From Candidatus Limnocylindrales bacterium (GTDB lineage Bacteria; Chloroflexota; Limnocylindria; Limnocylindrales; CSP1-4), in the NCBI GenBank assembly GCA_035692005.1, contig DASSII010000101.1, forward strand, positions 35,470 to 99,469: a DNA stretch of 64,000 nucleotides, written 5' to 3'. A program made the position numbers and the translations under genes. Positions 16,887-44,604 of the stretch are shown piece by piece. The notes beneath the pieces were generated by a model that was not told where the DNA came from, did not search any database, and saw nothing but the letters and a program-made list of their open reading frames with translations. Within the stretch, counting starts at the first letter, position 1. Every line of letters starts with the position of its first letter.

Positions 16887-18385
16887 GGCAGCGCCTGGGC
16901 GGCAGCCGCCACGCACGGGCTGGCGCTGATGGCGCAGGCCGCCTGGTTGACGACGCCGAGCAGGGTGGTCGGGAACAGGCCGAGCAGGATCGTCAGCGCC
17001 GTGGCAGCCGCCAGGCCACCCCACATCAGCGCCCCGTGGCGGAGTGCCGGCGCGTCCGACGCCGGATCACGCATGAACATGTAGACCACGACCCGCAGGT
17101 AGTAGAACGCGGCGACCGCGGCGTTGAGCATGGCGATGACGGCCAGCACCGTCAGCCAGCCACCGGCCTGGACGGCCGCCAGGATGACGTACGCCTTGGC
17201 GAAGAAGCCGGCCGTCGGCGGGATGCCGGTGAGGGACAGCAGGAACAGGGTCATGAGCACGCCCAGCAGCGGTTCCCGGCGGCCGAGCCCGGCGAACGTG
17301 TCGAGCGCCGAGGTGACGCCGGCCCGCTTCTGCAGCGCCGCGATGACGGCGAACGCGCCGAGGTTCATGAAGGCGTACGCCGCCCCGTAGAACAGCAGCC
17401 CTTCGAGGCCGCGCAACTGGCCGGCCGCGTAGGCGGCCAGACCGACGAGCATGTAGCCGGTGTGCGCGATCGAGCTGTACCCGAGCATCCGCTTGACGTT
17501 GTCCTGGGTGAGGGCCACCAGGTTGCCCAGTGTCATCGTCAGCGTCGCGAGGACGATCATCACCGGCAACCACCATTCGGCCAGCGGGCCGAGCGCCTCG
17601 ACGAACAGGCGCAGGATCAGGGCGAATGCCCCGACCTTGGGGCCGACCGACAGGTACCCGGTGATCGGCGTCGGCGAGCCCTGGTAGGCGTCCGGAGTCC
17701 AGTAGTGGAATGGCACCGCGGCGATCTTGAACGCCACCCCCGTGGTCAGGAACGCGAGGCCCATCGCCAGGCCCGCCGACAGCGGCTCGGTCCCGGCGAC
17801 GACCGCGGCGAGGGCGTCCTTGATGCCTTCGATCCGGGTCGTGCCGGTCAGTCCCCACACGAAGGCGAGGCCGAACAGGAAGATCGCGGAACTGAACGAG
17901 CCGAGCAGGAAGTACTTGATCGCCCCCTCGGTCGAGTAACCGTCGGTCTTGTGGTAGCCCGCCAGGAGGTAGCCCGGCAGGACCATCAGCTCCAGACCGA
18001 GGAACAGCAGCAGCAGATCGGCGGACCCGGCGATGAGCATCGCGCCGGTCATCGCGAACACCAGGACGACGGCGAACTCGGCGATCGGCAGGCCACGTGG
18101 CAACAGGTAATCCGGGGCGAACACGACGGTCATCGCCACGACCGCGATGAACAGCACGTCGAGGAAGGTGGTGAGCGCGTCGACCTTGTACGACCCCCCG
18201 AACGCCGACGCGTCCGTCTGGCCGACGGCCAGGGTGATCGCGGCCGTGATCGCCAGCCCGATCAGCGCGGTCGCGATGGCTGGCGCACTCCGCCCCGGCC
18301 GCACCAGGTCGACCACGAGGATCGCCGCCGCCGTCAGGACGGCCGCGATGAGTGGCAGGATCGGGACGATGTCCTGGAAGCTCAC
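16883..18385 (-). CDS. nuoN: NADH-quinone oxidoreductase subunit N
   Basis: Polytopic antiporter-like subunit ('FHYWTPDAYQGSPTPITGYLSVGPK'). The GTG start overlaps the nuoM TGA. Confidence 0.9.
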   Translation of the reverse strand: MSFQDIVPILPLIAAVLTAAAILVVDLVRPGRSAPAIATALIGLAITAAITLAVGQTDASAFGGSYKVDALTTFLDVLFIAVVAMTVVFAPDYLLPRGLPIAEFAVVLVFAMTGAMLIAGSADLLLLFLGLELMVLPGYLLAGYHKTDGYSTEGAIKYFLLGSFSSAIFLFGLAFVWGLTGTTRIEGIKDALAAVVAGTEPLSAGLAMGLAFLTTGVAFKIAAVPFHYWTPDAYQGSPTPITGYLSVGPKVGAFALILRLFVEALGPLAEWWLPVMIVLATLTMTLGNLVALTQDNVKRMLGYSSIAHTGYMLVGLAAYAAGQLRGLEGLLFYGAAYAFMNLGAFAVIAALQKRAGVTSALDTFAGLGRREPLLGVLMTLFLLSLTGIPPTAGFFAKAYVILAAVQAGGWLTVLAVIAMLNAAVAAFYYLRVVVYMFMRDPASDAPALRHGALMWGGLAAATALTILLGLFPTTLLGVVNQAACAISASPCVAAAAQALP

Positions 18386-20046
18386 CGGGCTGCCTCACGG
18401 CCGACCAGGGCAGCGTCCGGCGGACCGCCGCGGCCCGCGGCCAGGACCCAGCCGATGCGGGCCGCGACACCGACCACCAACAGCGCGACGGCGACGATGA
18501 CGAGCTCCGGAGCGATGGCGAGGGCAGCCCCGGATCCGGCAGCGCGCAGCGTGTCGTCGACCGAGCCACGGACGAGGTCGAGCACGAGTCCGGGCTGGAG
18601 GCCGAACACGACGATGAGGGTGGCCAGCGGTACGAGCGTCAGGATCTCGATGGGATCCATGTCGGTCAGGTGGCCGCCCAGCCCGGTCAGGAAGTCGGAG
18701 ACCTCCTCGAACACGAGCCGGCCGTACATGTACAGCAGGTAGCCGGCGGCCAGGATCATCACGAACGCGGCGATGGCGGCCGCGGCCGGACTGATGGCGA
18801 ACGTGCCGACGATGGTCAGGAACTCCCCGACGAAGCCGGACAGGCCGGGCAACCCGCCGGACGCGAACACGAAGAACCCGAATACCGCCGCCCACAGCGG
18901 CATCCGGGCGGCCAGTCCGGTCATCTTGGCGATGGTCCGATCGTGGGTCCGCTCGTAGAGCACGCCGACGAGCAGGAACAGACCGCCGGTGATGAGTCCG
19001 TGGTTGACCATCTGCAGGATCGAGCCCTCGATGCCCTGCTGGGTGAACACGAACAGGCCGAGCGTGACGAAGCCCATGTGGCTGACCGACGAGTACGCCA
19101 CGAGCCGCTTGAGGTCCGGCTGGACGAGCGCCACGATGGCGCCGTAGATGATGGCGATGAGCGACAGGACGATGACCACCGGCGCGAACGTGTGGGCGGC
19201 GTCGGGGAACAGCGGGACGGCGAAGCGCATGAGCCCGTACGCCCCGAGCTTGAGCATGATCGAGGCGAGGATGACCGAGCCCGCGGTCGGCGCCTCGGTA
19301 TGCGCGTCCGGCAGCCAGGTGTGGAACGGGAACATCGGCACCTTGATCGCGAAGGCCAGGAAGAACGCCAGGAAGGCACCCACCTGCAGGGCCGGTGCGA
19401 AGCCGGTCGTCGCGGCGAAGTCCCGGAGCGTCACGAAATCGAACGCCCCGACCCACGATCCACCGTTGGCGGCCTGGTACGAGAAGCCGGTCGCCAGGAT
19501 CGCCACGAGCATGAGCAGCGAACCGGCGAGCGTGTAGAGGACGAACTTGATCGTCGCGTAGATCCGGTTCGCCCCGCCCCAGATCCCGATGATCAGGTAC
19601 ATCGGGACGAGCACGACCTCCCAGAAGATGTAGAACAGGAACAGGTCGAGCGCGAGGAACACGCCGATCAGGCCGACCTCGAGGATCAGGAACGAGATCA
19701 TGTATTCCTTGATCCGCGTCTGGATCGGCCGCCAGCTCGCGAGCAGCGAGACCCAGGTGATGGTCGTGGTCAGGACGACCAGGGCAGCGGACAGCCCGTC
19801 CACGCCGAGCTTGTACTGGATCCCGAACACGCCGATCCAGTCGGCCTGCTCGACGTACTGGAACTGCTGGCCCGGGCGCCCCGGCAGGTAGCCGATGAGC
19901 AGCAGCAGCGAGACGACCCAGGTCGCCAGGGCGAACCCGACCGCCACCTGTCGCGTGAGCGACGAGGGCAGGATGGCCACGACGATCGCCCCGACCAGCG
20001 GCAGGAACGTGACGACGGTCAGGATCGGCAGGTCGTTGAGGTTCAC
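18382..20046 (-). CDS. nuoM: NADH-quinone oxidoreductase subunit M
   Basis: 'HTWLPDAHTEAPTAGSVILASIMLKLGAYG' is NuoM-type. The GTG at 20046 overlaps the nuoL TGA. Confidence 0.9.
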   Translation of the reverse strand: MNLNDLPILTVVTFLPLVGAIVVAILPSSLTRQVAVGFALATWVVSLLLLIGYLPGRPGQQFQYVEQADWIGVFGIQYKLGVDGLSAALVVLTTTITWVSLLASWRPIQTRIKEYMISFLILEVGLIGVFLALDLFLFYIFWEVVLVPMYLIIGIWGGANRIYATIKFVLYTLAGSLLMLVAILATGFSYQAANGGSWVGAFDFVTLRDFAATTGFAPALQVGAFLAFFLAFAIKVPMFPFHTWLPDAHTEAPTAGSVILASIMLKLGAYGLMRFAVPLFPDAAHTFAPVVIVLSLIAIIYGAIVALVQPDLKRLVAYSSVSHMGFVTLGLFVFTQQGIEGSILQMVNHGLITGGLFLLVGVLYERTHDRTIAKMTGLAARMPLWAAVFGFFVFASGGLPGLSGFVGEFLTIVGTFAISPAAAAIAAFVMILAAGYLLYMYGRLVFEEVSDFLTGLGGHLTDMDPIEILTLVPLATLIVVFGLQPGLVLDLVRGSVDDTLRAAGSGAALAIAPELVIVAVALLVVGVAARIGWVLAAGRGGPPDAALVGREAAR

Positions 20047-22046
20047 CGCGGGCCACCGGTCAGGATCAGGTACGACCCGGCGATGACGATCAGGCCCAGG
20101 GCGATGCCGAGGGCGTAGTTCTGGACGTGTCCGGTCTGCACCCGGCCGAGCCCACGGCCGGCGACGACCGTCTGGCGGCCGATGGCGTTGACCGTGCCGT
20201 CGACGACCTCGCGGTCGAACCACCACATCGCCGCGGCGATCCGCCCGCCGATGACGATGAACAGGAGATGGTTCAGGTCGTCGAACCACCACTTGTTGAG
20301 TGACGCGCGATAGAGGAACGACAGGCCGGGACGGGCGCTCAGCTCACGCACGTCCTCGGGCCGCGCCGGCGCGCGGAACCGCCCGAGGTCGACACCGAAC
20401 AGCCGCCAGGCGGCGACCAGCCCGGCGACCGCCACGGTCACGCTGGCGAGGATCAGGGCACCATCGACGCCGAACAGCTCGTACGACTCATGGGGCAGGG
20501 CCAGGAGCTCGGTGGCGTGGTGGAACACCGGCTCGAGCCAGCCGTGCAGGACACTGGAGCCCAGCGGCAGGCCGATCGCCAGCCCGAGCAGGGCCGAGGG
20601 GATGGCCAGCAGGATGAGCGGGACGGTCATGACCCGGGGCGACTCGTGGATCTTGTCCCAGATGGCCGCCGGGCCACGGAACGAGCCCCAAAAGGTCAGG
20701 CCCATGAGCCGGAACATGTAGAACGCGGTCAGCAGGGCGACGAACAGCCCGACCCCCCACACCCAGTAGAAGCTGGCCTTGAACGCCTCACCGAGGATCT
20801 CGTCCTTGGAGAAGAATCCGGCGAAAGGCGGGATGCCCGCGATGGCGATGGAGCCGACGAACATCGTGGCGTAGGTGATCGGGATCTTCCGGCTCAGGCC
20901 GCCCATCCGGCGCATGTCCTGCTCCTCGTGGACCGCATGGATGACGGAGCCCGAGCCGAGGAAGAGGAGGCCCTTGAAGAAGCCGTGGGTCATCAGGTGG
21001 AAGATGGCCGCGGTGAACGCGCCGACCCCGAGGGCGGCGAACATGTACCCGAGCTGCGACAGCGTCGAATAGGCCAGCACCCGTTTGATGTCGGTCTGGG
21101 TCATCGCGATCGACGCCGCGAGGATGGCGGTGAAGATGCCGATCGCCGCCACCACGACCATGGCCGACGGGGTCGACGCGAACAGCGGGTTGGCCCGCGC
21201 GATGAGATAGACCCCGGCGTTGACCATCGTCGCGGCATGGATGAGCGCGGAGACCGGGGTGGGGCCCTCCATCGCATCGGGCAGCCAGACATGCAGCGGG
21301 AACTGGGCACTCTTGCCCATCGCGCCGGCGAACACAAGCAGCGCGACGACGACGAGCGGGATGGGATTGGCCTCCCCCTGGGCGAGCAGCAGCTCGATCG
21401 ACTCGCGGACGTTGAGCGTCGGGTGGCCGGCGGCCGCGGTATTCACGACGATCGCGGCGATGCCAAGGACGAAGCCCAGGTCGCCGACGCGGTTGACGAT
21501 GAACGCCTTCTTGGCCGCCAGCTGGGCGGAACGCTTGCGGTACCAGAAGCCGATGAGCAAGTAGCTCGACAGCCCGACCAGCTCCCAGGCCACGAACACG
21601 ACGAGCCAGTTGTCGGCCAGGACCAGCAGCAGCATCGAGAACATGAACAGGTTCAGGTAGGCGAAGAACCGCCAGTACCCCGGGTCGTGGCTCATGTAGC
21701 CGATCGAGTAGACGTGGACCAGCAGGCCGATCGTGGTCACGACGATCAGCAGACATGCCGTCAGCGGGTCGACGACCAGTCCGAAGTCGATGTGGAGATC
21801 GCCGGCGGGGATCCACGCCCACGGCCCGGCGACGTAGCCGTGCGTGTCCTCCGAGCCCGGCAGCAGCGGCGCCGCCCCGGTCAGCACGTTGGCGACGGCG
21901 ACCATCGCGATGATCCAGACCACGAGGATCGCCAGGACCGGGATCCAGTGGGCTGACTTGCCGAAGCGTCGGCCGATGAACGCCGTCACCAGGAACCCGC
22001 CCAGCGGCAGGAGGAGCAGCAGCGGCAGCAACGCCTCGATCGTCAC
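20043..22046 (-). CDS. nuoL: NADH-quinone oxidoreductase subunit L
   Basis: '[31 protein letters not shown]' and a long C-terminal amphipathic region. The GTG at 22046 overlaps the nuoK TGA. Confidence 0.9.
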
Positions 22047-22360
22047 TGGCGCATCGCGTCGTACTCGTCGACGAGCGGCGTCTTCTTGTTGCGATAGATG
22101 GCGATCACGATGGCGAGGCCGACGGTCGCCTCGGCCGCCGCGACAGCCATGACCATGAGCGCGAACACGGCACCCTGGGCGGATGCGTCGGGACCGGCAC
22201 CGAACACGCCGAAGGCGACGATGGCAAGGTTGACTGCGTTGAGCATCAGCTCGATCGACATGAGCATGCTGATCGCGTTGCGCCGGGCGAGGAAGCCGAA
22301 CGAGCCGATGGCGAACAGGATGCCGGACAGGATCAGATACGTGTCGAGGCTGTCGCTCAC
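22043..22360 (-). CDS. nuoK: NADH-quinone oxidoreductase subunit K
   Basis: 105-aa 3-TM protein ('[21 protein letters not shown]'). The GTG at 22360 overlaps the nuoJ TGA. Confidence 0.85.
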
Positions 22361-22950
22361 GACGGACCGCCGGGCTCGCGCTTCGCCAGGAAGACACCGC
22401 CGATCACGGCGGCGAGCAGGAGCACGCTGACGATCTCGAACGGGAACACGAAGTCGCGGAACAGGACCTTGGACATCGCGTTCGTCGAGATCCCGACCCG
22501 CTTGGCCGCGGCGCCCCAGTCGGTGGCGGTCACCGCCAGGGCGATGAGCACGGCGAACACGACCGCGGCGATGGCCGCGACGCCTGCCTGGGTCTGGAAC
22601 ACCAGCCGGCTCGGCGCATCCTTGGTCTGGGTGAGCATGATCGCGAACAGGATCAGGACGCTGATCGCGCCGATGTACACGATGACCTGCGCCGCGCCGA
22701 GCAGCGGCACGCCCATCAGCGTGTAGATCCCGGCGAGCGCGAGGAAGCAGACGATCATCGCCAGGCCGCAGCGGATGATGTCGCGCATCGTGACGACCAG
22801 CAGCCCGGACCCGAGCATGACCGCGGCGAGGATCCACAGGAGGGCGTCCTCCCAGTCCTGACCGAGGGCCAGGAGCATGAGCGCGGCGATGCCGAGCACC
22901 GCCCCCATGACGATGAGGCCGAGCAGGATGGGGACGAGCCGGGCGAGCAC
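22357..22950 (-). CDS. nuoJ: NADH-quinone oxidoreductase subunit J
   Basis: 197-aa hydrophobic NuoJ-like protein. Confidence 0.8.
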
Positions 22951-22959
22951 GGTCGGACC

Positions 22960-25608
22960 CTACTCGTGGCCGCCGGGGCCGAGCGCCGCCACGGCAGCGT
23001 GGCCGTCGCCATGGTCGTGCCCGTGGCCGTTGCCCGCGCCGTGGCCGCCGTGCGACGGGACGCCACCGATGGCTGGTGGGAGCATCGGCAGGAGACGGCT
23101 GGTGTCGATGCCACGCCCGTCGGCGGCCGCGCGGGCCGCCCAGTCGCGCTCGCGCCGGATGTAGGTCACCTCGGTCTCGCGGTCGATCGCCGCCAGCGCG
23201 ATCAGGTCGATGACGGGGTCGGTCCGGCTCGTGTGGGCGAGCTCGATGTCGGCACCGTCGCGCAGGGCGTCGTAGGGACACGCATCGACACAGATGCCGC
23301 ACAGGATGCAGCGGCTCTCGTCGACCTCGTACTTCTGCAGGACGCGCGGCTTGGGCATCAGCGCGCCGGTCGGGCAGGTCTCGGCACAGCGACCGCACGA
23401 CACGCACGGCGTGTCGTTGAGGCTCATGTCGAGCGGCGTCGTGACCAGCGTGTCGAAGCCGATGCGCATGAAGTCGTAGCACGCCGCGCCGACGACCTCG
23501 GCGCACACGTTGGCGCACCGTCCGCAATCGATGCAGCGCGATGGCTCACGCAGGATGAACGCGTGCGAATCGTCGCGGATGTAGTCGTGGTTGATGCCGG
23601 TGAACCGGTTCTCGGTGATGCTCCGATAGCCCGCCCCTTGGTGGAACTGCGGCTCGAGCGTCTTGAGCGTGGTGCCGTACTCGATGCCCAGACGTCGCAG
23701 GTCGCAGAAACCGATCGCCTCGCAGGTGCACTGCAGGCAGCGCGTCGATTCGGCGACGGCTGCCGCCGGTGTGTACGGCAGCTCGTACTCGACGTAGTCG
23801 TGGTTGCGCTCCTCGGCCGGCATCGCCTGCATCCGATAGCGCGGCTCCTTGATCTCGGCCGTGAACGGTACGATCGACAGGAACTCCGGCTGCGGCTCGG
23901 CGAGCGTCTGGCGGGTGCGGATCGCGCCCAGGTCCAGGCCCTTCATGAACGCGTCGACGGCGTATGCGGCACGGCGACCCTCGGCGACGGCCTGGACCAC
24001 GGTCGCCGCGCCGATGCGGACATCGCCCGTCCCGAACACGCCCGGGCGATCCGTCTCGAACGTGACCGCGTCGGCCTTGAGGCGTCGTTGCTTGGTCGCC
24101 GCCGGCCCCTCGTTGCCGGGCGCAGCAAGCCAGTCGAGCTCGGGACCCTGGCCGATCGCGAGCAGCACCCGGTCGCACGGGATCGTGAACTCGGTGCCGG
24201 GCGCCGGTTCCGGGCGACGGCGGCCGGAGGCATCCGGGGCGCCAAGAGCCATCCGGATGAACTCCACGCCGGTGACCTTGCCGCTCGCCTCGTCGGTGAT
24301 GACCCGCACGGGTCCGGCCTGGAAGATGGCGGTGACGCCCTCTTCGATGGCCTCGTGGACTTCATCGGCCGCCGGCATGTCCTTCATGTCGCGGCGGTAC
24401 ACGAGGGTGACGTCGCTGGCGCCCTGCCGGACGGAGGTGCGCGAGCAGTCCATCGAGGTGAAGCCACCGCCGATGACCACCACGCGCTTGCCGGCGTGAT
24501 CGGGGTAGGGCAGGCCGAGCGTGGCCGTGCGCAGGTATTCGAGACCGTCGATGACGCCGTCGGCGTCCTCACCGGGGATGCCCAGCTTGTTCGTGTCGTA
24601 GCAGCCGATCGCGACGAGCACCGAGTCGAAGCCCTGGTTGGTCAGGTCGTCGAGGGTGAAGTCGCGCCCGAGGCCGGCATTGGTGACCATCCTGGCGCCG
24701 AGACGCATGACCGACTCGTATTCGGCCTCGAGGACCTCTACCTTGGGCAGGCGGTACTGCGGGATCCCGTAGCGGAGCATGCCGCCCGGCGCGGGATCGC
24801 GCTCGAAGACCGTGACATCGTGGCCGGCGATGAGCAGGTAGTACGCCGCGCTCATGCCGGCCGGCCCCGACCCGATGACCGCGGCGCGGCGGCCTGAACG
24901 GACCTGTCGCTCGAACGGCACGGGCGGATCGACGTCGTCGTCGAGCTGCGCCTTGAGCACCTGGTCGCCGGCGTAGCGATGCGAATCGCGGATGGCGATG
25001 GCCTCATCGACCTCGTCCCGCCGGCAGTGCTCCTCGCACGGCGCGGGGCATACCCGGCCCAGGACCGAGGGGAACGGGATCGTCCGCTTGAAGATGCGCG
25101 TGCTCTCGCGCCAGTCCGCCTCGGCGTTGGCCTTGAGGAAGCCCGGGATGTCGATGTGGCTCGGGCACTTGTTCTGGCACGGTGGCAGGCAGTAGGCGTT
25201 GTGATCGCTGAAGATCAGTTCGAGGTTCGTGCGGCGCAGGCGGCGGACTTCCTCGGTCTGGGTCTGGACCTTCATGTCCGGCTCGCACGTGCGCGAGCAG
25301 GAGATGGGTGGATGCTCCTCGCCCTCGACCTCGACGACGCACATCCGGCAGGCACCGAAGCCCGGCAGCTTCGGCTCGTAGCACAGCGTCGGGATCTCGA
25401 TCCCGTTGTCGCGACAGACCTCGAGGATGGTCTGGCCCTCGAAGCCCTCGACCACCCGCCCGTCGACCTCGATCCGGATGCGCGGCGTCGACTGGGGACG
25501 CTGCGGCGACTGGGTCTCGAGCAGGCGCTCGGCCAGCGAGTCGGCGTTGGTCCGCGCGGACGTCGCGGGAACGGGGCGGCCCTCGGGGCGGGCGATCGTG
25601 TCGGTCAT
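22960..25608 (-). CDS. Non-canonical complex I 'NuoG' replacement: N-terminal NuoG-type [2Fe-2S] ferredoxin domain, then a GltD-like FAD/NAD(P)H oxidoreductase domain, then C-terminal NuoG-type [4Fe-4S] domains and a His-rich tail; no molybdopterin domain
   Basis: Domains in order: '[19 protein letters not shown]' (N1b-type 2Fe-2S), '[12 protein letters not shown]' and '[12 protein letters not shown]' (GltD N-terminal Fe-S), '[17 protein letters not shown]...GIPQYRLPK' (FAD/NADPH), then '[21 protein letters not shown]', '[12 protein letters not shown]' and '[12 protein letters not shown]'. The ATG at 25608 overlaps the nuoF TGA (ATGA). Confidence 0.75.
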
Positions 25609-26900
25609 CGGGAAGCCTCGGTCGCGGCCGGTCGGGGTCGGCGCTCGGGGTCGAACTCGGACCCGAAGTATCGCATCCCGCTGGTCAGCGGGAGCGTGGC
25701 GAGCCGCTCGTGGTCGCACAGGGCGGACGCGGCGATGTCGTGGGCCAGGTCGGTCGCCAGCTGCGCATCGACCGGACGCAACAGGCCCGCCTCGCGCCGG
25801 TCGACGATCTCGGCCAGTCGCTTCGTCCCGATGCGACACGGGATGGACTTGCCACACGCCTCGTTGGCGCAGAACCGGGTCAGTACGCCGACCAGCTCGA
25901 GCAGGTCGGTCCGATCGTCCACGGCCACCACGGACCCCGACCCCAGGTGGGCTCCGGCGTCGCGCAACGAGGCGAAGTCGTAGGGCGTGTCCAGCGCGTC
26001 GGGCGGCAGCAGACCACCCGATGGACCGCCGACCAGCACGGCCTTGAGCGAACGGTCGGCTGGCAGCCGACCGCCAAGCTTGAGCACATCCCTGAGCGGC
26101 GTGCCGAGCGGGACCTCGGCGATGCCGTCTCCCGAGGGGGTCCGCAGCTGGACGAGAACGGTGCCGGGAGCATGGGTGGAGCCGGTCGAGCTGAACGCGT
26201 CCTCGCCCTCGCGGACGATCCACGGCACGGCCGCCAACGTCTGCACGTTGTTGACCACGGTCGGCCGACCGAACAGGCCGCGCCGCGCAGGATGCGGCGG
26301 CCGCTGCTCGGGCTGGCCGCGCTTGCCCTCGAGCGCCTTGAGCAGGACCGTCTCCTCGCCGAGCATGTAGGCGCCCTGGACGGTCCGCACGGAGACGTCG
26401 ATGTCCCGCCCGGAGCCGAGCACGTCCGTGCCGAGATAGCCCGCCTCGCTGGCGGCCCCGATCGCCGCCGACAGCCGGGCGACGACGTCGCCGTGTTCGG
26501 CGCGAACCGCGATGAAGGCCTCGCTGGCCCCGATCGCGAAGGCGGCGATGGCCACCCCTTCGACCACGGCATATGGGTCGAGGAGCATCAGCGTGCGGTC
26601 CGTGTGCGAGGCCGGGTCTGCCCCGTAGCCGTTGGCCACGACGTAGCGCTGGTCAGCGTCGGTGTCGGCGGCCATCCGCCACTTCTCCCCGGTCGGGAAA
26701 CCCGCCCCGCCGCGGCCGCGCAGACCGGACCCGCTGATGGCTGCGATGGTGCCGGCCGGTCCGAGGTCGCGGATCGCGCGGCGCAGGCCCGCGAAGGCTC
26801 CGTCGGCGACGGCAGCATCGAGGTCGGTCGGGTCCTTGGCAGCGGCGCGGGCGAGAAGGATCCGCGGCCAGCCGGCCGGGGTCCGCAGGAGGGTCGCCAT
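25605..26900 (-). CDS. nuoF: NADH-quinone oxidoreductase subunit F (51-kDa, FMN/NADH-binding)
   Basis: 'GLRGRGGAGFPTGEKW' and 'GAYMLGEETVLLKALEG' (FMN), with a C-terminal N3 cluster ('FCANEACGKSIPCRIG...ALCDHE'). It starts 2 nt after the nuoI stop. Confidence 0.85.
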   Translation of the reverse strand: MATLLRTPAGWPRILLARAAAKDPTDLDAAVADGAFAGLRRAIRDLGPAGTIAAISGSGLRGRGGAGFPTGEKWRMAADTDADQRYVVANGYGADPASHTDRTLMLLDPYAVVEGVAIAAFAIGASEAFIAVRAEHGDVVARLSAAIGAASEAGYLGTDVLGSGRDIDVSVRTVQGAYMLGEETVLLKALEGKRGQPEQRPPHPARRGLFGRPTVVNNVQTLAAVPWIVREGEDAFSSTGSTHAPGTVLVQLRTPSGDGIAEVPLGTPLRDVLKLGGRLPADRSLKAVLVGGPSGGLLPPDALDTPYDFASLRDAGAHLGSGSVVAVDDRTDLLELVGVLTRFCANEACGKSIPCRIGTKRLAEIVDRREAGLLRPVDAQLATDLAHDIAASALCDHERLATLPLTSGMRYFGSEFDPERRPRPAATEASR

Positions 26901-26902
26901 GG

Positions 26903-27580
26903 TCAGGTCCGCGCCGCGGCGCCGGGCCGCCCGCTCCCGTCGAGCGCCGCGCCGAGCGTCGCGAGGTACGTCGTCTCCGCGGGCCGGTGGCGCGCGACCG
27001 CGTCCGCCTGCTCGGCGGCAGCGGCCGGCTCGAAGCGCAGGTGGGCGTAGAAGCTGGCCGTGCCGTAGATCATCGCGTACCAGGCACCCGTCCGGTGGCT
27101 GATCCGCTTGAGCGCGGCGACCGGCAGGTAGCCGTACGCGGACTGGGTCGCCTCGAGGATCGCCAGCATCCGGGCCGGATCGTGGTCGTACTCGTCGAGG
27201 ACCGCGTCGACGGCGGCCAGGTCGATCGGCGCGAATGGACGGAAGGCGGGATCGGGCACGGGTCGGCCCGAGCGCCGCAAGGCCGATTCCTCGCGACGTT
27301 CGTCGTACTGCTCGGGTGCGCCCCAGTGGACGTGGTAGCGGCCGCGCGTGTCGATGCCGCCCATGTCGATGCATTCGATCGGGCATGCCTGGGCGCACTG
27401 GAAGCAGGTCTCGCATTTGAGCGTGCCCCACTCGTCGTACAGCAGCTGCAGCCGACCGCGGAACCGCGGCGGCACGTCGAGCCGGACTTCGGGGTACTTG
27501 ATGGTGACCTTGGGCTCGAAGACGCGGCGCAGGGTCAGGGCCATGCCCTTGGCGATGCCAAGACCCGGGATGAAGGTCAT
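26903..27580 (-). CDS. nuoI: Atypical NuoI: a single CxxCxxCxxxCP [4Fe-4S] motif followed by a C-terminal extension resembling the N-terminal helical domain of NuoE
   Basis: The N-terminus aligns with NuoI ('LTLRRVFEPKVTIKYPEVRLDVPPRFRGR...KCETCFQCAQACPIEC'). The C-terminal ~90 aa 'RMLAILEATQSAYGYLPVAALKRISHRTGAWYAMIYGTASFYAHLRF' matches the NuoE N-terminus but has no Cys. No second ferredoxin motif is found in any frame. Confidence 0.65.
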   Translation of the reverse strand: MTFIPGLGIAKGMALTLRRVFEPKVTIKYPEVRLDVPPRFRGRLQLLYDEWGTLKCETCFQCAQACPIECIDMGGIDTRGRYHVHWGAPEQYDERREESALRRSGRPVPDPAFRPFAPIDLAAVDAVLDEYDHDPARMLAILEATQSAYGYLPVAALKRISHRTGAWYAMIYGTASFYAHLRFEPAAAAEQADAVARHRPAETTYLATLGAALDGSGRPGAAART

Positions 27581-27584
27581 CAGG

Positions 27585-28925
27585 TCAGCTCCGGATCACG
27601 ACGATGGCCGCGGCGGTCACGAACAGGTTGAGCAGCGATGCCGGCAGCAGCCACTTCCAGGCGAAGTCCATGAGCTGGTCGATGCGGACGCGAGGCAGCG
27701 TCCCCCGCATCCACACGAAGATGAACACGAAGACGTACGTCTTGAGCATGAACCAGAGGATACCGGCGACCCAGTCGAGGCCGATGTATGCCCACGCGCC
27801 CAGCATGGCGATGATGAACAGGTTGGCGAGCACGAACCCGGCGATGAGCGCCTGCCACCAGCGGATGCGCGAGCTGAGGACGAAGAACGGCGTCGCGAAC
27901 AGCAGCGTCAGCACGACCGGAGCGAGCCCGGCGATGAACAGCAGGCCGATCCCGAACGACGCTGGGTCGAGGCTGAGGGCGATGGGCCAGGGCCACGGGA
28001 ATGGCGCGTTCCAGCCGCCGAAGAAGAGCGTGACCGTGAGCGCCGACATGATGAACACGTTCACGTACTCGGCGAAGAAGAAGAACCCGAAGCGCATGCC
28101 CGAGTACTCCGTGGCGAAGCCCGCCACGATCTCGGAATCGGCCTCGGTCAGGTCGAACGGGGTGCGGTTGGCCTCGGCGGTCGCGGCGATGAAGAAGATC
28201 AGCGCCCCGAGCGGTTGCTGGAAGATGTACCAGTTCGTGAACCAGCCACCCTGGTTCTCGACGAGCGTGTTGAGGCTCATCGTCCCGGCCAGCAGGAGCA
28301 GGCCGACGACCGACAGTGTCAGCGGGATCTCGTAGCTGACGACCTGGGCGGCCGAGCGCAGCCCGCCCAGCAGCGAGTACTTGTTGTAGCTCGCCCAGCC
28401 GGCCATCAGCAGGCCCACGACCGACAGGCCGCCGATGGCGAAGAAGTAGAGCAGGCCGATGTTCAGGTCCGCCCCGTACAGGCCGGGCGCGAACGGGATG
28501 ACGAGCAGGGTCATCACGCTCGCCAGGTAGACGACCACCGGTGCCCAGGTGAACACGACCGGGTCGGCGCCGGTCGGGGTGAAGTCCTCCTTCATGAGGA
28601 CCTTGAGCCCGTGCACGACCGACAGCAGCGACCCGAACGGGCCTACCCGATCGGGGCCGATGCGCAGGTTCATCAGGGCGATGCCCTTCATCTCCATGTA
28701 GATGATCAGAAACGCCGTGGGCACCGTCATCAGCAGCACGAGCGTGACGGCGACGACGAAGCGGACGATCGGCAGGTTGGCGCCGAGGATGTCCAAGAGC
28801 GGGCCCCCGAACGCGACGATGGCCACGACCAGGCCGACGGTCAGCGCGATCAACAGCGGCACGATCGTGAACACGACCTTGCCCGGCAGTGTCAGCCGAT
28901 CCCAGCCGCGTCCGATGACCGTCAC
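27585..28925 (-). CDS. nuoH: NADH-quinone oxidoreductase subunit H
   Basis: 'GWASYNKYSLLGGLRSAAQVVSYEIPL' and 'RTPFDLTEADSEIVAGFATEYSGMRF' are NuoH-type. The GTG at 28925 overlaps the nuoD TGA. Confidence 0.9.
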   Translation of the reverse strand: MTVIGRGWDRLTLPGKVVFTIVPLLIALTVGLVVAIVAFGGPLLDILGANLPIVRFVVAVTLVLLMTVPTAFLIIYMEMKGIALMNLRIGPDRVGPFGSLLSVVHGLKVLMKEDFTPTGADPVVFTWAPVVVYLASVMTLLVIPFAPGLYGADLNIGLLYFFAIGGLSVVGLLMAGWASYNKYSLLGGLRSAAQVVSYEIPLTLSVVGLLLLAGTMSLNTLVENQGGWFTNWYIFQQPLGALIFFIAATAEANRTPFDLTEADSEIVAGFATEYSGMRFGFFFFAEYVNVFIMSALTVTLFFGGWNAPFPWPWPIALSLDPASFGIGLLFIAGLAPVVLTLLFATPFFVLSSRIRWWQALIAGFVLANLFIIAMLGAWAYIGLDWVAGILWFMLKTYVFVFIFVWMRGTLPRVRIDQLMDFAWKWLLPASLLNLFVTAAAIVVIRS

Positions 28926-30181
28926 TTGTCCACCCCGCCCATGATCGGGTCGAGCGAGGCCATGACCGCCATCGTGTCGGCGATGAGGTTGCCGGGCGTC
29001 ATGACCCCGACCGCCTGGAGGTGGATGAACGAGGGGTCGTGGATGCGCATCCGGAACGGCTGGTGTGTCCCGTCGCTGATGGCATAGGTCGCGTACTGTC
29101 CGCGCGGACCCTCGACGGCCGCGTATGCCCGTCCCGGTCGTGGTCGGATGAGCCGCGGCAGTTTGGCCATCACCGGCCCGTCCGGCATCTCGTGGAGGCA
29201 TTGGTCGATGATCCGCAGGCTCTGCCTGACCTCGTCCATGCGCAACAGGTAGCGGGCGAGGCAGTCGCCTTCGCTCCGCGTCGGGATGTCGAAATCGAGC
29301 TCCGGATACACGCTGTATGGATGCGCCCGGCGGACGTCGAAGGGCACGCCGGTCGCCCGCAGGTTCGGCCCACTGAAGCACATCCGCAGCGCCGTCTCGG
29401 TGTCGATGGTGCCCAGGCCGCGCATCCGGCGCACGAAGATTTCGTTCTCATTGAGCAGCGTATTGCCCGCCTCGATCTGCTCGGTCGCGTGGCTCATCCA
29501 GTCGCCGAGGCGGCTCATGAAGTCGTGGTTGAGATCGCCGTTGACGCCACCGATGCGGAAGTAGTTGAACAGCATCCGCTGGCCGGTCACCGCGGCCAGC
29601 ATGTCGACGATCTCGTCTCGCTCGATGAACGACCACAGGATCGGCGTCAGCCCACCGAGATCGAGCGCCATCCAGCCGAGGAACAGCGCGTGGCTGGCGA
29701 TCCGGTTCAGCTCGGCGGTCAGGACCCGGATGTACTGCGCGCGGCGCGGGACCTCGACGTCGAGCAGCTTCTCGAAGGCCATGACCGGCGACCACTCGTT
29801 GAACAGCGAGCTGACGTACTCGAGCGGATCGACCTGGCTGATGACATGGTGGTAGTCGGCGTTCTCGCACAGCTTCTCGACGCCCCGATGCAGGTAACCG
29901 AGGACAGGGTCGAGATCGACGACCTTCTCGCCGTCGAGCTTGAGCACGATCCGCAGCACGCCGTGGGTGGATGGATGCTGTGGACCCATGTTGATGAACA
30001 TCTCGCCGTCGCCGAGCGTGTAGAACTCGGCCTCGCGCTCCGTCCGCGGCGGGTACGGCGGCACCGGCTCGAAGACCCCGAGGTCGCGGTCGAGCCGGAC
30101 GCGCGGGTCATCGGTCGACGCGGCGCCGGACGAGCCTTGGTCGTCGGCGTGGGTGTCGGGGCGAGGCGTGGTGGCGGTCAT
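28922..30181 (-). CDS. nuoD: NADH-quinone oxidoreductase subunit D
   Basis: 'INMGPQHPSTHGVLRIVLKLDGE' and 'IHDPSFIHLQAV' are NuoD-type (49-kDa). Confidence 0.9.
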   Translation of the reverse strand: MTATTPRPDTHADDQGSSGAASTDDPRVRLDRDLGVFEPVPPYPPRTEREAEFYTLGDGEMFINMGPQHPSTHGVLRIVLKLDGEKVVDLDPVLGYLHRGVEKLCENADYHHVISQVDPLEYVSSLFNEWSPVMAFEKLLDVEVPRRAQYIRVLTAELNRIASHALFLGWMALDLGGLTPILWSFIERDEIVDMLAAVTGQRMLFNYFRIGGVNGDLNHDFMSRLGDWMSHATEQIEAGNTLLNENEIFVRRMRGLGTIDTETALRMCFSGPNLRATGVPFDVRRAHPYSVYPELDFDIPTRSEGDCLARYLLRMDEVRQSLRIIDQCLHEMPDGPVMAKLPRLIRPRPGRAYAAVEGPRGQYATYAISDGTHQPFRMRIHDPSFIHLQAVGVMTPGNLIADTMAVMASLDPIMGGVDK

Positions 30182-30204
30182 CGGTCGTCCGTTCGGTCTG
30201 TCGG

Positions 30205-30753
30205 TCAGGCGCCGCTGCGTCGCACGGTCGCTGCAGCCGGCGAGTTGCGGGGATCGTGGGTGCGCTCCATGGGCCGGACACCCGCACCGGGCGAGCGGGC
30301 AGCGTCGTCGGGCAGGTAGAAGTCCTTGCGCAACGGGAAGCTGCGGTAGTCGGGCGGCATATAGATGCGCCGCAGGTCACGGTTCCCCTCGAACGTGATG
30401 CCGAACATGTCGTAGGCCTCGCGCTCCATCCACTCGGCGCCCTTCCACAGGAAGGTCGCTGACGGCACCCGCGGGTCGTCGCGCGACAGGCCGCCGGCGA
30501 TGACCCGCAGCCAATCGGGCGTCGTCGTGCTCCACAAGTGGTACACGACCTGCATGACCTCACCCGTGTCGACGCCGGCCAGGTCGGCCAGGAACTGGAA
30601 CCCGAACGCCGGCTCGTCGTGGAGCGCGGTCAGCACCTGGGTCACGTCGCCCGGGCCGATGCGGATCTCGGTCTCGTCGTGGCGCTGGCGGATGGGGCCG
30701 ACCAGCTGCGCTCCGAAGCGGTCGGCGAGGCGAGCCTTGAACGCGCGATCCAT
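30205..30753 (-). CDS. nuoC: NADH-quinone oxidoreductase subunit C
   Basis: 'FLWKGAEWMEREAYDMFGITFEGNRDLRRI' is NuoC-type (30-kDa). Confidence 0.85.
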   Translation of the reverse strand: MDRAFKARLADRFGAQLVGPIRQRHDETEIRIGPGDVTQVLTALHDEPAFGFQFLADLAGVDTGEVMQVVYHLWSTTTPDWLRVIAGGLSRDDPRVPSATFLWKGAEWMEREAYDMFGITFEGNRDLRRIYMPPDYRSFPLRKDFYLPDDAARSPGAGVRPMERTHDPRNSPAAATVRRSGA

Positions 30754-30757
30754 GCCG

Positions 30758-31510
30758 CTAGACCTCGGCGGGGACGGTCGGGCCGATCGCCCGCTCCGGC
30801 CAATGCCCGCGCCGATCCTTCACCAGTTGCTGGAGCTTCATCATCCCGAAGATGAGGCCCTCCGGGCGGGGCGGACAACCCGGCACGTAGACGTCGACCG
30901 GCATGACCCGGTCGATCCCTTCGACCGTCGAGTAGCTCCGCTTGTAGCGACCGCCGGAGCAGGTGCAATCGCCCATCGCCACGGACCACTTCGGCTCGGG
31001 CATCTGCTCCCACAAGCGGACGAGTGGCCCGGCCATCTTGGTCGTCAGCGTGCCGGCGACGATCAGGACGTCGGCCTGGCGGGGGCTGGCCCGGAACGGG
31101 AACATGCCCCACCGATCCATGTCGTTCTTGGAGGTGGCGGCCGACATCATCTCGATCGCGCAGCACGCCAGGCCGGACAGCAGGGGCCACAGGCTGTTCA
31201 TCCGGATCAGGTCGAGCACGTAGTCGGCCTTCGTCGGGATCACCTCGAGCATGCCGCCCCAGCGGCCATCGTCACGCCGACCCGCCCCGCTCGCCTCGAA
31301 CTGGGCGAGGTGGGTGATGTCGGTCGGGCGACCGCCGTCGTATGCCGCCGGGTCGACCGCCTGCCAGAGCGAATTCGCCACGACGATCGGCGTCGTCAGC
31401 TCGTCCTGCGGTCGGGTCGCCGGCAGGGCCGGATGATTCGGCACGTCGGACGACACCGGAGTCTCGCCCTCGGGTCCCACCCCGAGGCGATCGTCGCCGC
31501 TCAGTGCCAT
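30758..31510 (-). CDS. nuoB: NADH-quinone oxidoreductase subunit B
   Basis: 'GLACCAIEMM', 'MGDCTCSGG' and 'VPGCPPRPE' are the N2 cluster ligands of NuoB. Confidence 0.9.
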   Translation of the reverse strand: MALSGDDRLGVGPEGETPVSSDVPNHPALPATRPQDELTTPIVVANSLWQAVDPAAYDGGRPTDITHLAQFEASGAGRRDDGRWGGMLEVIPTKADYVLDLIRMNSLWPLLSGLACCAIEMMSAATSKNDMDRWGMFPFRASPRQADVLIVAGTLTTKMAGPLVRLWEQMPEPKWSVAMGDCTCSGGRYKRSYSTVEGIDRVMPVDVYVPGCPPRPEGLIFGMMKLQQLVKDRRGHWPERAIGPTVPAEV

Positions 31511-39612: not shown

Positions 39613-39688
39613 GGGCGACCTCGATCGCAGTTGGGTCCCCGTGCCGGCGCGGGGCGGATCCAATCGTAGCAGGCTAGTCCCGGATCGT

Positions 39689-39735
39689 GGGTACAAACCT
39701 TCTGATATTGTCTACGCTACGTACCCGACTGGTAC
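39689..39735. promoter_or_regulatory. AT-rich promoter box with inverted repeats GGGTAC-N26-GTACCC and GTACC-N5-GGTAC upstream of the cupin gene
   Basis: A local AT-rich island in 70% GC DNA. It contains 'GGGTACAAACC', and a GGAGGA RBS and GTG start follow. Confidence 0.4.
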
Positions 39736-44583: not shown

Positions 44584-44604
44584 GGACCATCCTCCCTGGA
44601 CGCC

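What the first reader, a model, noticed from the sequence alone, without database searches (positions are those of the whole stretch)
22960..25608. Complex I 'NuoG' replaced by a [2Fe-2S]–GltD-like flavoprotein–polyferredoxin fusion lacking the molybdopterin-type domain
The gene in the NuoG slot keeps NuoG's N-terminal N1b-type 2Fe-2S domain ('[19 protein letters not shown]'). It also keeps the His-ligated and 2x[4Fe-4S] ferredoxin motifs, but these are relocated to the C-terminus. It has no formate-dehydrogenase-like domain. Between the Fe-S parts sits a complete GltD-like FAD/NAD(P)H oxidoreductase domain ('GRVCPAPCE', '[15 protein letters not shown]'), of the type found in NfnB, SudA, glutamate-synthase-beta and SfrB. 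The protein ends in a His/Gly-rich tail ('[17 protein letters not shown]'). Because it is translationally coupled to nuoF (ATGA) inside an otherwise canonical nuo operon, the N-module would have two flavin/nucleotide sites. That would allow NADPH input or bifurcation-like chemistry.
Basis: partly seen in the sequence, partly recalled or inferred. Interest (0 to 1): 0.75.

Follow-up and report, generated by a model that had tools for sequence, protein, structure and literature searches.

The report
Transhydrogenase-type input module splitting complex I NuoI
In this soil/freshwater Chloroflexota genome, a three-gene NADH/NADPH-oxidising module related to soluble Nfn/Stn transhydrogenases sits inside the complex I gene nuoI. 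It cuts nuoI into two halves, each fused to an end of the module, which suggests a respiratory complex I that can also take electrons from NADPH.

Summary
The ORF is real: minus strand 22960-25608, 882 aa, GC3 0.91, and full length in more than 100 homologue clusters.

Two points are new. First, the dead formate-dehydrogenase-like C-terminal domain of NfnA/StnC is replaced by the C-terminal half of NuoI. Second, the operon is not canonical. Its order is nuoA-B-C-D-H-[NuoI N-half + NuoE N-domain]-[NuoF-like]-[this gene]-J-K-L-M-N. A whole nfnCBA/stnABC-like operon therefore lies inside nuoI.

The two NuoI halves cover complementary parts of the NuoI profile. Joined, they align collinearly with solved NuoI, including all eight Cys.

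The arrangement is conserved in 65 of 65 informative Limnocylindria loci. It also occurs in Thermoleophilia, where the full bifurcation-type B and C subunits are retained. The window's version lacks those elements. The most likely function is a non-bifurcating NADH + NADPH:quinone oxidoreductase.

No description was found in the searchable literature. This is a new variant of a known kind, and function is inferred only.

The parts
22960..25608 (-). Target gene: NfnA/StnC-type Fe-S flavoprotein fused to the NuoI C-terminal half (882 aa)
   Evidence: Intact ORF. PDB 9bov_A E 2e-158, 9n5u_A and 8oh5_C. Foldseek returns the same top three.
25237..25482 (-). [2Fe-2S] N1b-like domain, aa 43-124 (C76, C87, C90, C104)
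   Evidence: Pfam Fer2_4, 1.2e-19. The Cys are invariant in both phyla.
24934..25236 (-). GltD/NfnL N-terminal two-[4Fe-4S] region, aa 125-225 (C140/144/148, C187/191/195; H136 invariant)
   Evidence: Pfam Fer4_20, 1.6e-16. Invariant columns.
23929..24933 (-). FAD + NADPH Rossmann domains, aa 226-560 (GSGPAG; GGGFTSMD...VYRR)
   Evidence: Pfam Pyr_redox_2, 2e-29. Alignment to NfnA, StnC, NfnB and NfnI-L. AF2 pLDDT 75-95.
23557..23763 (-). All-Cys [4Fe-4S] motif at the NuoG-N5 position (C624, C627, C629, C635) plus an 18-aa Limnocylindria-specific insertion
   Evidence: Cys invariant.
23353..23556 (-). 2x[4Fe-4S] ferredoxin domain, aa 685-752 (C692/695/698/702; C735/738/741/745)
   Evidence: Pfam Fer4_Nqo3 and Fer4_7. 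Aligns with StnC, NfnA and HydA. dN/dS 0.07.
23119..23352 (-). C-terminal half of NuoI, aa 753-830 (C767/770/773/777-P)
   Evidence: TIGR01971 profile positions 71-117. PDB NuoI/TYKY/Nqo9 C-halves. dN/dS 0.195.
22963..23118 (-). Weakly constrained C-terminal tail, His/Gly-rich at its end
   Evidence: dN/dS 0.40. Absent in Thermoleophilia.
25605..26900 (-). NuoF/BfuB-core flavoprotein (431 aa): FMN/NADH site and N3-type cluster, without the Bfu N- and C-terminal cluster domains
   Evidence: Pfam Complex1_51K and NADH_4Fe-4S. PDB 9bov_B residues 104-515 only. Motif conservation.
26903..27580 (-). 225-aa fusion: NuoI N-terminal half (aa 1-~90, window 27311-27580; C56/59/62/66-P) plus NuoE/NfnC N-terminal helical domain (aa ~118-187, window 27020-27229). 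No [2Fe-2S] domain.
   Evidence: Cys invariant in 58 of 58 sequences.
27585..28925 (-). nuoH
   Evidence: Pfam NADHdh, 8e-107.
28922..30181 (-). nuoD
   Evidence: Pfam Complex1_49kDa.
30205..30753 (-). nuoC
   Evidence: Pfam Complex1_30kDa.
30758..31510 (-). nuoB
   Evidence: Pfam Oxidored_q6.
31501..31917 (-). nuoA
   Evidence: Pfam Oxidored_q4.
22357..22950 (-). nuoJ
   Evidence: Pfam Oxidored_q3.
22043..22363 (-). nuoK
   Evidence: Pfam Oxidored_q2.
20043..22046 (-). nuoL
   Evidence: ORF and translation. Orthologue in L001 carries Proton_antipo_N/M.
18382..20046 (-). nuoM
16883..18385 (-). nuoN

Best explanation
The gene encodes the large Fe-S flavoprotein of a non-canonical electron-input module of a proton-pumping complex I in Candidatus Limnocylindria.

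Anatomy (shown):
- An operon of the nfnCBA/stnABC type (E-like, F-like, GltD-containing G-like) lies inside nuoI of an 11-gene-type nuo operon.
- The 5' half of nuoI is fused to the N-terminal helical domain of the E-like subunit.
- The 3' half of nuoI is fused to the C-terminus of the NfnA/StnC-like subunit. There it replaces that family's catalytically dead formate-dehydrogenase-like domain.

Mechanism (inferred):
- The two NuoI halves reassemble into the 2x[4Fe-4S] subunit (N6a/N6b). Each cluster of that fold needs Cys from both motifs.
- This tethers both ends of the input module covalently to the quinone module. The tethers would substitute for the docking surface normally given by the NuoG C-terminal domain.
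- NADH is oxidised at FMN in the F-like subunit, and NADPH at FAD in the GltD-like domain.
- Both feed the Fe-S network of the large subunit. Its 2x[4Fe-4S] domain is a dead-end side branch in soluble NfnA/StnC. Here it passes electrons on to N6a, N6b, N2 and then quinone, driving proton pumping.
- The E-like [2Fe-2S] (C1) and the B-subunit sites B2-B5 are missing, so the window's enzyme is not expected to bifurcate.
For: Gene order and domain content.

Homology to NfnABC/StnABC for all three subunits:
- Large subunit: 9bov_A E 2e-158, 9n5u_A and 8oh5_C.
- F-like subunit: 9bov_B E 2e-99.
- E-like subunit: 9bov_C E 4e-14.
- Foldseek gives the same top hits.

Split NuoI:
- TIGR01971 covers profile positions 1-63 in the 225-aa protein (53 bits).
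- It covers positions 71-117 in target residues 755-801 (54 bits).
- An artificial join covers positions 1-117 in one stretch (100.7 bits).
- The join aligns collinearly with solved NuoI/TYKY/Nqo9 at E 2e-20, with all eight Cys matched. The halves alone give about 1e-10 each.
- No other nuoI is in the operon.

Conservation:
- The same synteny holds in all 65 loci that have enough flank.
- At least 587 species-level genomes encode the C-terminal region.
- All 28 Fe-S Cys are invariant across two phyla.
- dN/dS is 0.07-0.20 in the cofactor domains, including the NuoI half.

Independent lineage: Thermoleophilia have the same breakpoints with complete E- and B-type subunits.

Nucleotide sites:
- The NADPH motif ...VYRR aligns with NADPH enzymes.
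- The NADH/FMN motifs GRGGAGF..KW, GAYxLGEET and NNVQT are near-invariant, and four N3 Cys are conserved.

Literature:
- The dead-end branch is described in PMC11829005 (A4/A5) and PMC10482914 (C1/C2).
- The E-like N-domain is the anchoring part (PMC11829005).
- The N6a environment maps to the second NuoI motif and the N6b environment to the first (PMC8357420).
Against: - Nothing is shown biochemically.
- Reassembly of the NuoI halves could not be modelled. AF2 on the joined halves gave pLDDT 37. The full-length model is unreliable for residues 627-882.
- The F-like subunit has lineage-wide changes next to the flavin: NGYGADP instead of NADEGDPG.
- It also has a ligand swap at the N3 cluster.
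- It is less conserved than the large subunit, at 61-90% against 83-98%. NADH oxidation there is not certain.
- Some Thermoleophilia orthologues have a degenerate NADPH motif, so NADPH input is not universal in the family.
- Whether these genomes also carry a canonical nuoEFG/nuoI could not be checked.
Confidence: 0.6

Rival explanations
1. A NuoG in a canonical nuo operon acquired a GltD domain and lost its molybdopterin domain. The two-flavin N-module performs bifurcation-like chemistry.
For: Two flavin sites are present. The closest solved relatives, NfnABC and StnABC, are bifurcating enzymes.
Against: The operon is not canonical. The architecture is inherited from the NfnA/StnC family. The window lacks the C1 [2Fe-2S] domain and the B2-B5 domains, which PMC11829005 and PMC9304861 describe as present in all true bifurcating Bfu enzymes. 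There is no ferredoxin-binding C-terminal domain on the F-like subunit.
Confidence: 0.08
2. NADPH-only complex I. The GltD-FAD site is the working donor site. The F-like and E-like pieces are kept mainly as scaffold, or as a relay through the N3 cluster.
For: The large subunit is the most conserved gene of the module. The F-like subunit carries non-canonical residues next to the flavin and has lost a canonical N3 ligand. The E-like subunit is reduced to its anchoring domain.
Against: The FMN loop, GEET (the Glu that disfavours NADPH in NuoF, from my own knowledge of E. coli NuoF E183) and NNVQT are near-invariant. A replacement Cys for N3 is conserved in 60 of 61 sequences. This is the pattern of a working site, not of decay.
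Confidence: 0.15
3. The module works mainly as an outlet. Either pmf-driven reverse electron flow from quinol, or NADH oxidation, is used to reduce NADP+. That would make it an energy-linked transhydrogenase built on complex I.
For: Soluble relatives are transhydrogenases that connect the FAD and FMN sites by an Fe-S wire (PMC10482914, PMC11829005). The same wire is conserved here. Complex I is reversible (established knowledge).
Against: There is no direct evidence. The window contains no lithotrophic quinone-reducing system that would require reverse flow. NADPH and NADH have the same standard potential, so the direction depends on cellular ratios that are unknown here.
Confidence: 0.15
4. 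The NuoI halves are inert relics. The three-gene module is a soluble enzyme merely encoded within the nuo operon, and the membrane complex gets electrons from another donor.
For: Eleven-subunit complex I-like enzymes with unknown or other donors exist (PMC3144371, PMC11238625).
Against: Without the halves the complex would have no NuoI at all. All eight NuoI Cys are invariant and the NuoI-C segment is under purifying selection, dN/dS 0.195. Tight translational coupling runs through the whole operon. The same fusion is kept in two phyla.
Confidence: 0.03

Closest known systems
NfnABC / StnABC (Bfu-family NADPH-dependent transhydrogenases: Caldicellulosiruptor saccharolyticus 9bov, Thermococcus sibiricus 9n5u, Sporomusa ovata 8oh5)
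   Same: Same three-gene order (E-like, F-like, large subunit). The large subunit has the same domain order: [2Fe-2S], an inserted GltD/NfnL FAD-NADPH domain with two [4Fe-4S], a CxxCxC...C cluster, then 2x[4Fe-4S]. Identity is 37-39%, E down to 2e-158.
   Different: - The C-terminal Fdh-like domain, needed for tetramerisation in Stn, is replaced by half of NuoI.
- The E-like subunit has lost its [2Fe-2S] domain and is fused to the other NuoI half.
- The F-like subunit lacks the N- and C-terminal cluster/Zn domains.
- The module is encoded inside a nuo operon rather than as a soluble enzyme.
- It is found in aerobic-type soil and freshwater lineages rather than in anaerobes.
Canonical complex I N-module (NuoE, NuoF, NuoG) and connecting subunit NuoI (Nqo9/TYKY)
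   Same: Homologous FMN subunit, N1b-type [2Fe-2S] domain and ferredoxin-type domain. The NuoI sequence is complete when the halves are joined. The Q- and P-module genes are of the ordinary kind.
   Different: - NuoI is encoded in two pieces on two polypeptides.
- The E-F-G-like genes lie after nuoH and inside nuoI, instead of between nuoD and nuoH.
- There is no N1a cluster, no His-ligated N5 motif and no molybdopterin-like domain.
- There is an extra FAD/NADPH domain.
- NCBIfam NuoG scores 92 bits against a cut-off of 470.
Predicted 'Nuo-Bfu' complexes (Schut et al. 2022, PMC9304861; Geobacter, Deferribacteres, Planctomycetes, Nitrospirae)
   Same: The idea of a complex I whose NuoEFG is replaced by a Bfu-type module. 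The Thermoleophilia relatives of this locus have complete BfuB and BfuC features.
   Different: Nuo-Bfu is described as a 14-gene A-N cluster with the module in the usual EFG position. It has no GltD domain and an intact NuoI. Its taxa are different. The window's version lacks the Bfu-defining B2-B5 and C1 sites.
Eleven-subunit complex I-like enzymes with alternative donors (NDH-1 with ferredoxin, Fpo with FpoF/F420H2)
   Same: An A-B-C-D-H-I-J-K-L-M-N backbone gene order, to which a lineage-specific input device is added (PMC3144371).
   Different: Here the input device is inserted into, and covalently fused with, NuoI. It uses pyridine nucleotides.

Membership tests
NuoG (Nqo3 / 75-kDa subunit of complex I) | N-terminal [2Fe-2S] N1b domain | tested here: met
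   Pfam Fer2_4, 1.2e-19. PDB NuoG/NDUFS1 N-termini align to residues 43-145.
NuoG (Nqo3 / 75-kDa subunit of complex I) | His-ligated [4Fe-4S] N5 motif HxxxCxxCx5C directly after the N1b domain | tested here: not met
   Pfam NADH-G_4Fe-4S_3 gives only a partial match below threshold, at residues 125-141. The positional equivalent after the GltD insertion is all-Cys, C624/627/629/635.
NuoG (Nqo3 / 75-kDa subunit of complex I) | C-terminal molybdopterin-oxidoreductase-like domain; family HMM above cut-off | tested here: not met
   No molybdopterin Pfam domain. TIGR01973 NuoG scores 92 bits against a cut-off of 470.
NuoG (Nqo3 / 75-kDa subunit of complex I) | Gene between nuoF and nuoH in a nuoA-N operon | tested here: not met
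   The gene lies between the nuoF-like gene and nuoJ, downstream of nuoH.
NfnA / StnC (BfuA with GltD insertion) | [2Fe-2S] domain, then a GltD/NfnL domain with FAD, NADPH and two [4Fe-4S], then NuoG-like 4Fe-4S clusters in one chain | tested here: met
   9bov_A aligned over residues 44-777, E 2e-158. Motif alignments. Foldseek top hits 9bov_A, 9n5u_A and 8oh5_C.
NfnA / StnC (BfuA with GltD insertion) | C-terminal Fdh-like domain with its [4Fe-4S], mediating tetramer formation | tested here: not met
   The alignment to 9bov_A and 8oh5_C stops at about residue 777. The sequence beyond is NuoI-like.
Bfu family (electron-bifurcating BfuABC) | BfuB with the extra B2-B5 sites (N-terminal thioredoxin-like domain, C-terminal 2x[4Fe-4S]) | tested here: not met
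   The 431-aa F-like protein matches only residues 104-515 of 9bov_B. Pfam finds only Complex1_51K and NADH_4Fe-4S. The feature is met in Thermoleophilia relatives of 630-642 aa.
Bfu family (electron-bifurcating BfuABC) | BfuC with the C1 [2Fe-2S] thioredoxin-like domain | tested here: not met
   Only profile positions 2-64 of 145 of PF01257 are matched, and there is no Cys after residue 70. The feature is met in Thermoleophilia.
Bfu family (electron-bifurcating BfuABC) | Ferredoxin-coupled bifurcating activity | not testable with these tools
   Needs enzymology.
NuoI (Nqo9 / TYKY) | N-terminal segment plus two CxxCxxCxxxCP motifs forming N6a and N6b in one polypeptide | tested here: not met
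   Motif 1 is on the 225-aa protein and motif 2 is on the 882-aa protein.
NuoI (Nqo9 / TYKY) | Complete, collinear NuoI sequence content | tested here: inconclusive
   The joined halves cover TIGR01971 positions 1-117 of 121, but at 100.7 bits against a cut-off of 113. They align to solved NuoI at E 2e-20 with all eight Cys. Physical reassembly is not shown.
GltD / NfnB / DPD-type NADPH flavoprotein domain | Two N-terminal [4Fe-4S] (Fer4_20), FAD GxGxxG, and an NADPH Rossmann fold with the YRR 2'-phosphate motif | tested here: met
   AF2 pLDDT 75-95 and TM 0.77 to 5jca_L, 4ylf_B and 6s6s_E.
Predicted Nuo-Bfu (PMC9304861) | 14-gene nuoA-N cluster with BfuABC in the EFG position and intact NuoI | tested here: not met
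   13 genes; the module lies inside nuoI.

The most novel reading that the evidence does not exclude
This family is a membrane-coupled Nfn: a proton-pumping complex I permanently wired to a transhydrogenase-type module. It would have arisen by in-frame insertion of a whole operon into nuoI. In the complete (Thermoleophilia) form it would couple NADH, NADPH and ferredoxin to quinone and the proton-motive force by con- or bifurcation. In the reduced (Limnocylindria) form it would let abundant soil and freshwater bacteria respire NADPH with energy conservation, or make NADPH by reverse electron flow. The 'dead-end' Fe-S branch of soluble NfnA/StnC would be the live wire to N6a.
Probability: 0.2. 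Interest if true: 0.9.

Novelty: new variant of a known kind. Interest (0 to 1): 0.78.

Why it matters
Three reasons it would matter if true:

1. Donor specificity. Complex I is regarded as NADH-specific. From my own knowledge, NADPH use had to be engineered in E. coli. A natural, widespread complex I with a dedicated NADPH site would change how energy budgets of Limnocylindria and Thermoleophilia are modelled. At least 587 species-level genomes carry it, and both groups are abundant in soil and fresh water.

2. The Nfn/Stn side branch. It would give a functional meaning to the Fe-S side branch that the structural papers on NfnABC and StnABC call a dead end or evolutionary remnant.

3. Evolution and annotation. 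A core subunit split by insertion of a three-gene operon, with both halves surviving as fusions, would be an unusual case of modular evolution. It would also be a natural experiment on how the N-module docks to the Q-module. Current annotations hide it. They read 'FAD-dependent oxidoreductase', 'formate dehydrogenase major subunit', 'ferredoxin' and 'NAD(P)H-dependent oxidoreductase subunit E'. Automated pipelines would also score these genomes as lacking nuoI, nuoE and nuoG.

Tried and rejected
- AF2 on the artificially joined NuoI halves, single sequence: pLDDT 37, unusable.
- AF2 of the full protein with 38 homologues. It is good for residues 43-560 but below pLDDT 30 for residues 627-882. 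It says nothing about the C-terminal Fe-S domains or the NuoI half. Foldseek therefore only re-confirms the NfnA/StnC/GltD relationship.
- The single genome-contig scan was saturated by Limnocylindria. The best 80 hits are all 91-99% identical. The taxonomic spread of the other 500 or more hits is unknown.
- The third protein search, with the NuoI-N/NuoE fusion profile, was likewise saturated by 225-aa Limnocylindria proteins.
- The 50%-representative search gave only one further lineage with the NuoI-C fusion, P0140. Other 810-850-aa hits are formate-dehydrogenase-type proteins truncated at a probable selenocysteine codon.
- Rejected: frameshift or two-gene artefact.
- Rejected: the plus-strand ORF as the gene.
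- Rejected: a second nuoEFG in the window.
- Literature searches for a split NuoI or for a GltD/Nfn-type module on complex I found nothing. The searchable library lacks most subscription-journal papers.
Full report
**Observation**

The window is about 70% G+C. The gene lies on the minus strand at 22960-25608. It is one uninterrupted reading frame of 882 codons plus stop. Third-position G+C is 0.91. The long plus-strand ORF at 22966-24897 is its antisense shadow. The start codon overlaps the stop of the upstream NuoF-like gene (ATGA).

Pfam finds a [2Fe-2S] Fer2_4 domain at residues 43-118. It finds the two-cluster N-terminal region of GltD/DPD-type enzymes (Fer4_20) at 140-219. It finds a pyridine-nucleotide-disulphide-oxidoreductase domain at 242-544 and 4Fe-4S dicluster domains at 685-783. 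There is no molybdopterin domain.

More than 120 homologue clusters of 865-894 aa share 83-98% identity. Against 65 orthologues, every cofactor-binding segment has dN/dS of 0.07-0.20. The ORF is therefore real, intact and functional.

**What the protein is**

Its closest solved relatives are not NuoG. They are the large subunits of the Bfu-type transhydrogenases:
- Caldicellulosiruptor saccharolyticus NfnA (9bov_A, E 2e-158, aligned over residues 44-777)
- Thermococcus sibiricus NfnA (9n5u_A)
- Sporomusa ovata StnC (8oh5_C)

Foldseek with the AF2 model gives the same three first. Those proteins are described as a fusion of a [2Fe-2S] domain, a GltD/NfnL NADPH-FAD domain and a NuoG/Fdh-like part (PMC10482914, PMC11829005). 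The '[2Fe-2S]-GltD-ferredoxin' order is therefore a known architecture.

The FAD motif and the NADPH Rossmann motif, with its ...VYRR 2'-phosphate signature, align with NfnA, StnC, T. maritima NfnB and P. furiosus NfnI-L. The cluster at the position of NuoG's His-ligated N5 is all-Cys (C624, C627, C629, C635).

**What is new: the C-terminus and the operon**

Homology to NfnA/StnC ends after the 2x[4Fe-4S] domain. Residues of about 755-830 instead match the C-terminal half of NuoI/Nqo9/TYKY. They cover positions 71-117 of the 121-position NCBIfam NuoI profile.

The gene order on the minus strand is nuoA, B, C, D, H, a 225-aa gene, the NuoF-like gene, the target, then nuoJ, K, L, M, N. There is no separate nuoI, nuoE or nuoG in the operon, and none elsewhere in the window.

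The 225-aa protein begins with the N-terminal half of NuoI. That half covers profile positions 1-63 and carries one CxxCxxCxxxCP motif. It continues into the N-terminal helical domain of NuoE/NfnC. It lacks the thioredoxin-like [2Fe-2S] domain.

Joining the two halves in silico gives a single collinear match. It covers TIGR01971 positions 1-117 at 100.7 bits, against 53 and 54 bits for the halves. It also matches solved NuoI chains at E 2e-20 with all eight cysteines aligned.

The plain reading is that an E-like/F-like/large-subunit operon sits in frame inside nuoI. That is the gene order of stnABC. Each nuoI half survives as a fusion.

**The F-like subunit**

It is closest to Bfu B subunits (9bov_B, E 2e-99). 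It matches only their core, residues 104-515. It lacks both the N-terminal thioredoxin-like domain and the C-terminal 2x[4Fe-4S] domain.

Across 61 orthologues the FMN loop, GAYxLGEET and NNVQT are near-invariant. The lineage has fixed NGYGADP in place of NADEGDPG. It has also exchanged one N3 ligand. The middle Cys of CxxCxxC is Ser or Thr, and a new upstream Cys is conserved in 60 of 61 sequences. This looks like a derived but working site.

**Distribution**

Source names place the window in Candidatus Limnocylindria/Limnocylindrales, Chloroflexota. The nearest record is DAIUES010000095, at 98-99% identity.

All 65 fetched loci with enough flank keep the three genes in the same order. So does a 3.1-Mb contig with the whole operon.

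A second lineage was found through the 50%-identity representative library: Thermoleophilia, Actinomycetota. Five loci have the same backbone order and the same nuoI breakpoints. There the E-like part has its full [2Fe-2S] domain. The F-like subunit is a complete 630-642-aa Bfu B subunit.

All 28 Fe-S cysteines of the large subunit are invariant across both phyla. All operon genes are 30-52% identical between the phyla, the module genes no more or less than the others. This fits common descent or transfer of the whole operon. The window thus carries a reduced derivative of a complete Bfu-type module.

**Mechanism**

Shown: the anatomy above, purifying selection, and conservation of all ligands and nucleotide motifs.

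Inferred:
1. The two NuoI halves re-form the N6a/N6b ferredoxin fold. In that fold each cluster takes three Cys from one motif and the fourth from the other, so neither half can hold a complete cluster alone.
2. The fusions tether the module to the quinone module. In canonical enzymes the N-module docks largely through NuoG and lineage-specific extensions (PMC8357420). Here the NuoG-like C-terminal domain is gone. In NfnABC the N-domain of the E-like subunit is the part that anchors it to the B subunit (PMC11829005). That N-domain is exactly the part kept here.
3. NADH at FMN and NADPH at FAD feed the same Fe-S network. In NfnABC and StnABC a wire links FAD to FMN, and a side branch through the second ferredoxin cluster is called a dead end or remnant (PMC11829005, PMC10482914). 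Here that branch is followed, about 20 residues later, by the NuoI motif. In E. coli that motif lies next to N6a, the entry cluster. The side branch is therefore the likely exit to N6a, N6b, N2 and quinone.
4. The window lacks C1 and B2-B5, which the Bfu papers regard as needed for bifurcation (PMC11829005, PMC9304861). The enzyme should therefore be a plain, possibly dual-donor, NAD(P)H:quinone oxidoreductase.

I put this at about 0.6. The anatomy is near certain, and the donor usage is the uncertain part.

**Rivals**

- NADPH-only input with a scaffold-like F subunit (0.15)
- A mainly NADP+-reducing or transhydrogenase role, including reverse electron flow (0.15)
- An unattached soluble module (0.03)

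The evidence for and against each is given in the rival entries.

**Comparison with what is known**

The protein passes the tests for the NfnA/StnC core and for a GltD-type NADPH flavoprotein domain. It fails the tests for NuoG: N5 motif, molybdopterin domain, family HMM and gene position. It fails the tests for a complete NfnA/StnC, because it has no Fdh-like domain. Its partner subunits fail the Bfu-defining tests.

The closest published concept is the predicted 'Nuo-Bfu' of Schut et al. 2022. That is a 14-gene cluster with an intact NuoI, no GltD domain and different taxa.

Full-text searches found no description of a split NuoI or of an Nfn/Stn-type module on complex I. The library misses most subscription journals, so prior description cannot be excluded.

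**Verdict**

The important feature was missed: a transhydrogenase-type operon inserted into nuoI. This is a new variant of a known kind. It is widespread and currently mis-annotated. It makes testable predictions about NADPH respiration and about the 'dead-end' branch of Nfn/Stn enzymes. Interest 0.78.

Noticed in passing
window 27585-28925 (-): NuoH is 446 aa here and 449 aa in L001, against 371-375 aa in the Thermoleophilia loci. The Pfam NADHdh match is split in two, which suggests a lineage-specific insertion with extra hydrophobic segments near the C-terminus.
   Followed up: no
window 30758-31510 (-) and 28922-30181 (-): NuoB has an N-terminal extension of about 100 aa (the Pfam domain starts at residue 116 of 250). 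NuoD has an N-terminal extension of about 50 aa. These could be extra docking elements or mis-called starts.
   Followed up: no
window 22963-23075 (-), target aa ~845-882: A His/Gly-rich low-complexity tail is kept in character in Limnocylindria, absent in Thermoleophilia, and weakly constrained (dN/dS 0.40). Metal binding or a flexible tether is possible but unexplained.
   Followed up: partly
window 25605-26900 (-), F-like residues 90-96 and 344-355: Two lineage-wide changes were found. NGYGADP replaces the canonical NADEGDPG next to the flavin. One N3 ligand is swapped: a new Cys344 is present and position 352 is Ser or Thr instead of Cys.
   Followed up: partly
P0140, P0273, P0276 (Thermoleophilia; L002, L084): These orthologues have a degenerate NADPH Rossmann motif (GDGFAA, no YRR), while other Thermoleophilia keep it. 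NADPH input may have been lost in a sub-lineage.
   Followed up: no
P0128, P0151, P0155, P0197, P0213, P0218 (representative library): These GltD-fused formate-dehydrogenase-type proteins of 810-850 aa all end in 'NN(I/V)DHCARL'. They look like gene calls truncated at a selenocysteine TGA codon.
   Followed up: no
L007, L029, L082; P0095, P0499: Near-identical copies (83-96%) of the Limnocylindria genes sit in MAGs labelled Saccharimonadales, Actinomycetota, Sulfomarinibacteraceae, Verrucomicrobiae and Patescibacteria. Most are on short contigs, so binning contamination is probable.
   Followed up: no
window 3-5342 (+): A reading frame of 1779 codons runs off the window start. Protein-O-mannosyltransferase domains (PMT, PMT_4TMC) occur only in its C-terminal third. 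The N-terminal 1000 residues have no Pfam match at E <= 1e-5.
   Followed up: no
window 35971-39711 (-): A xanthine-dehydrogenase/aldehyde-oxidase-family molybdopterin subunit is followed by two further coding-like ORFs that were not scanned. A cytochrome P450 and an aldehyde dehydrogenase lie further on, at 43318-46479.
   Followed up: no
window 16883-31917 (-): Most of the 13 nuo genes overlap by 4 nt or are separated by 2-9 nt. A few junctions differ: nuoA/B overlap by 10 nt and nuoK/J by 7 nt, and nuoC/D are 23 nt apart. This implies translational coupling along most of the operon.
   Followed up: partly
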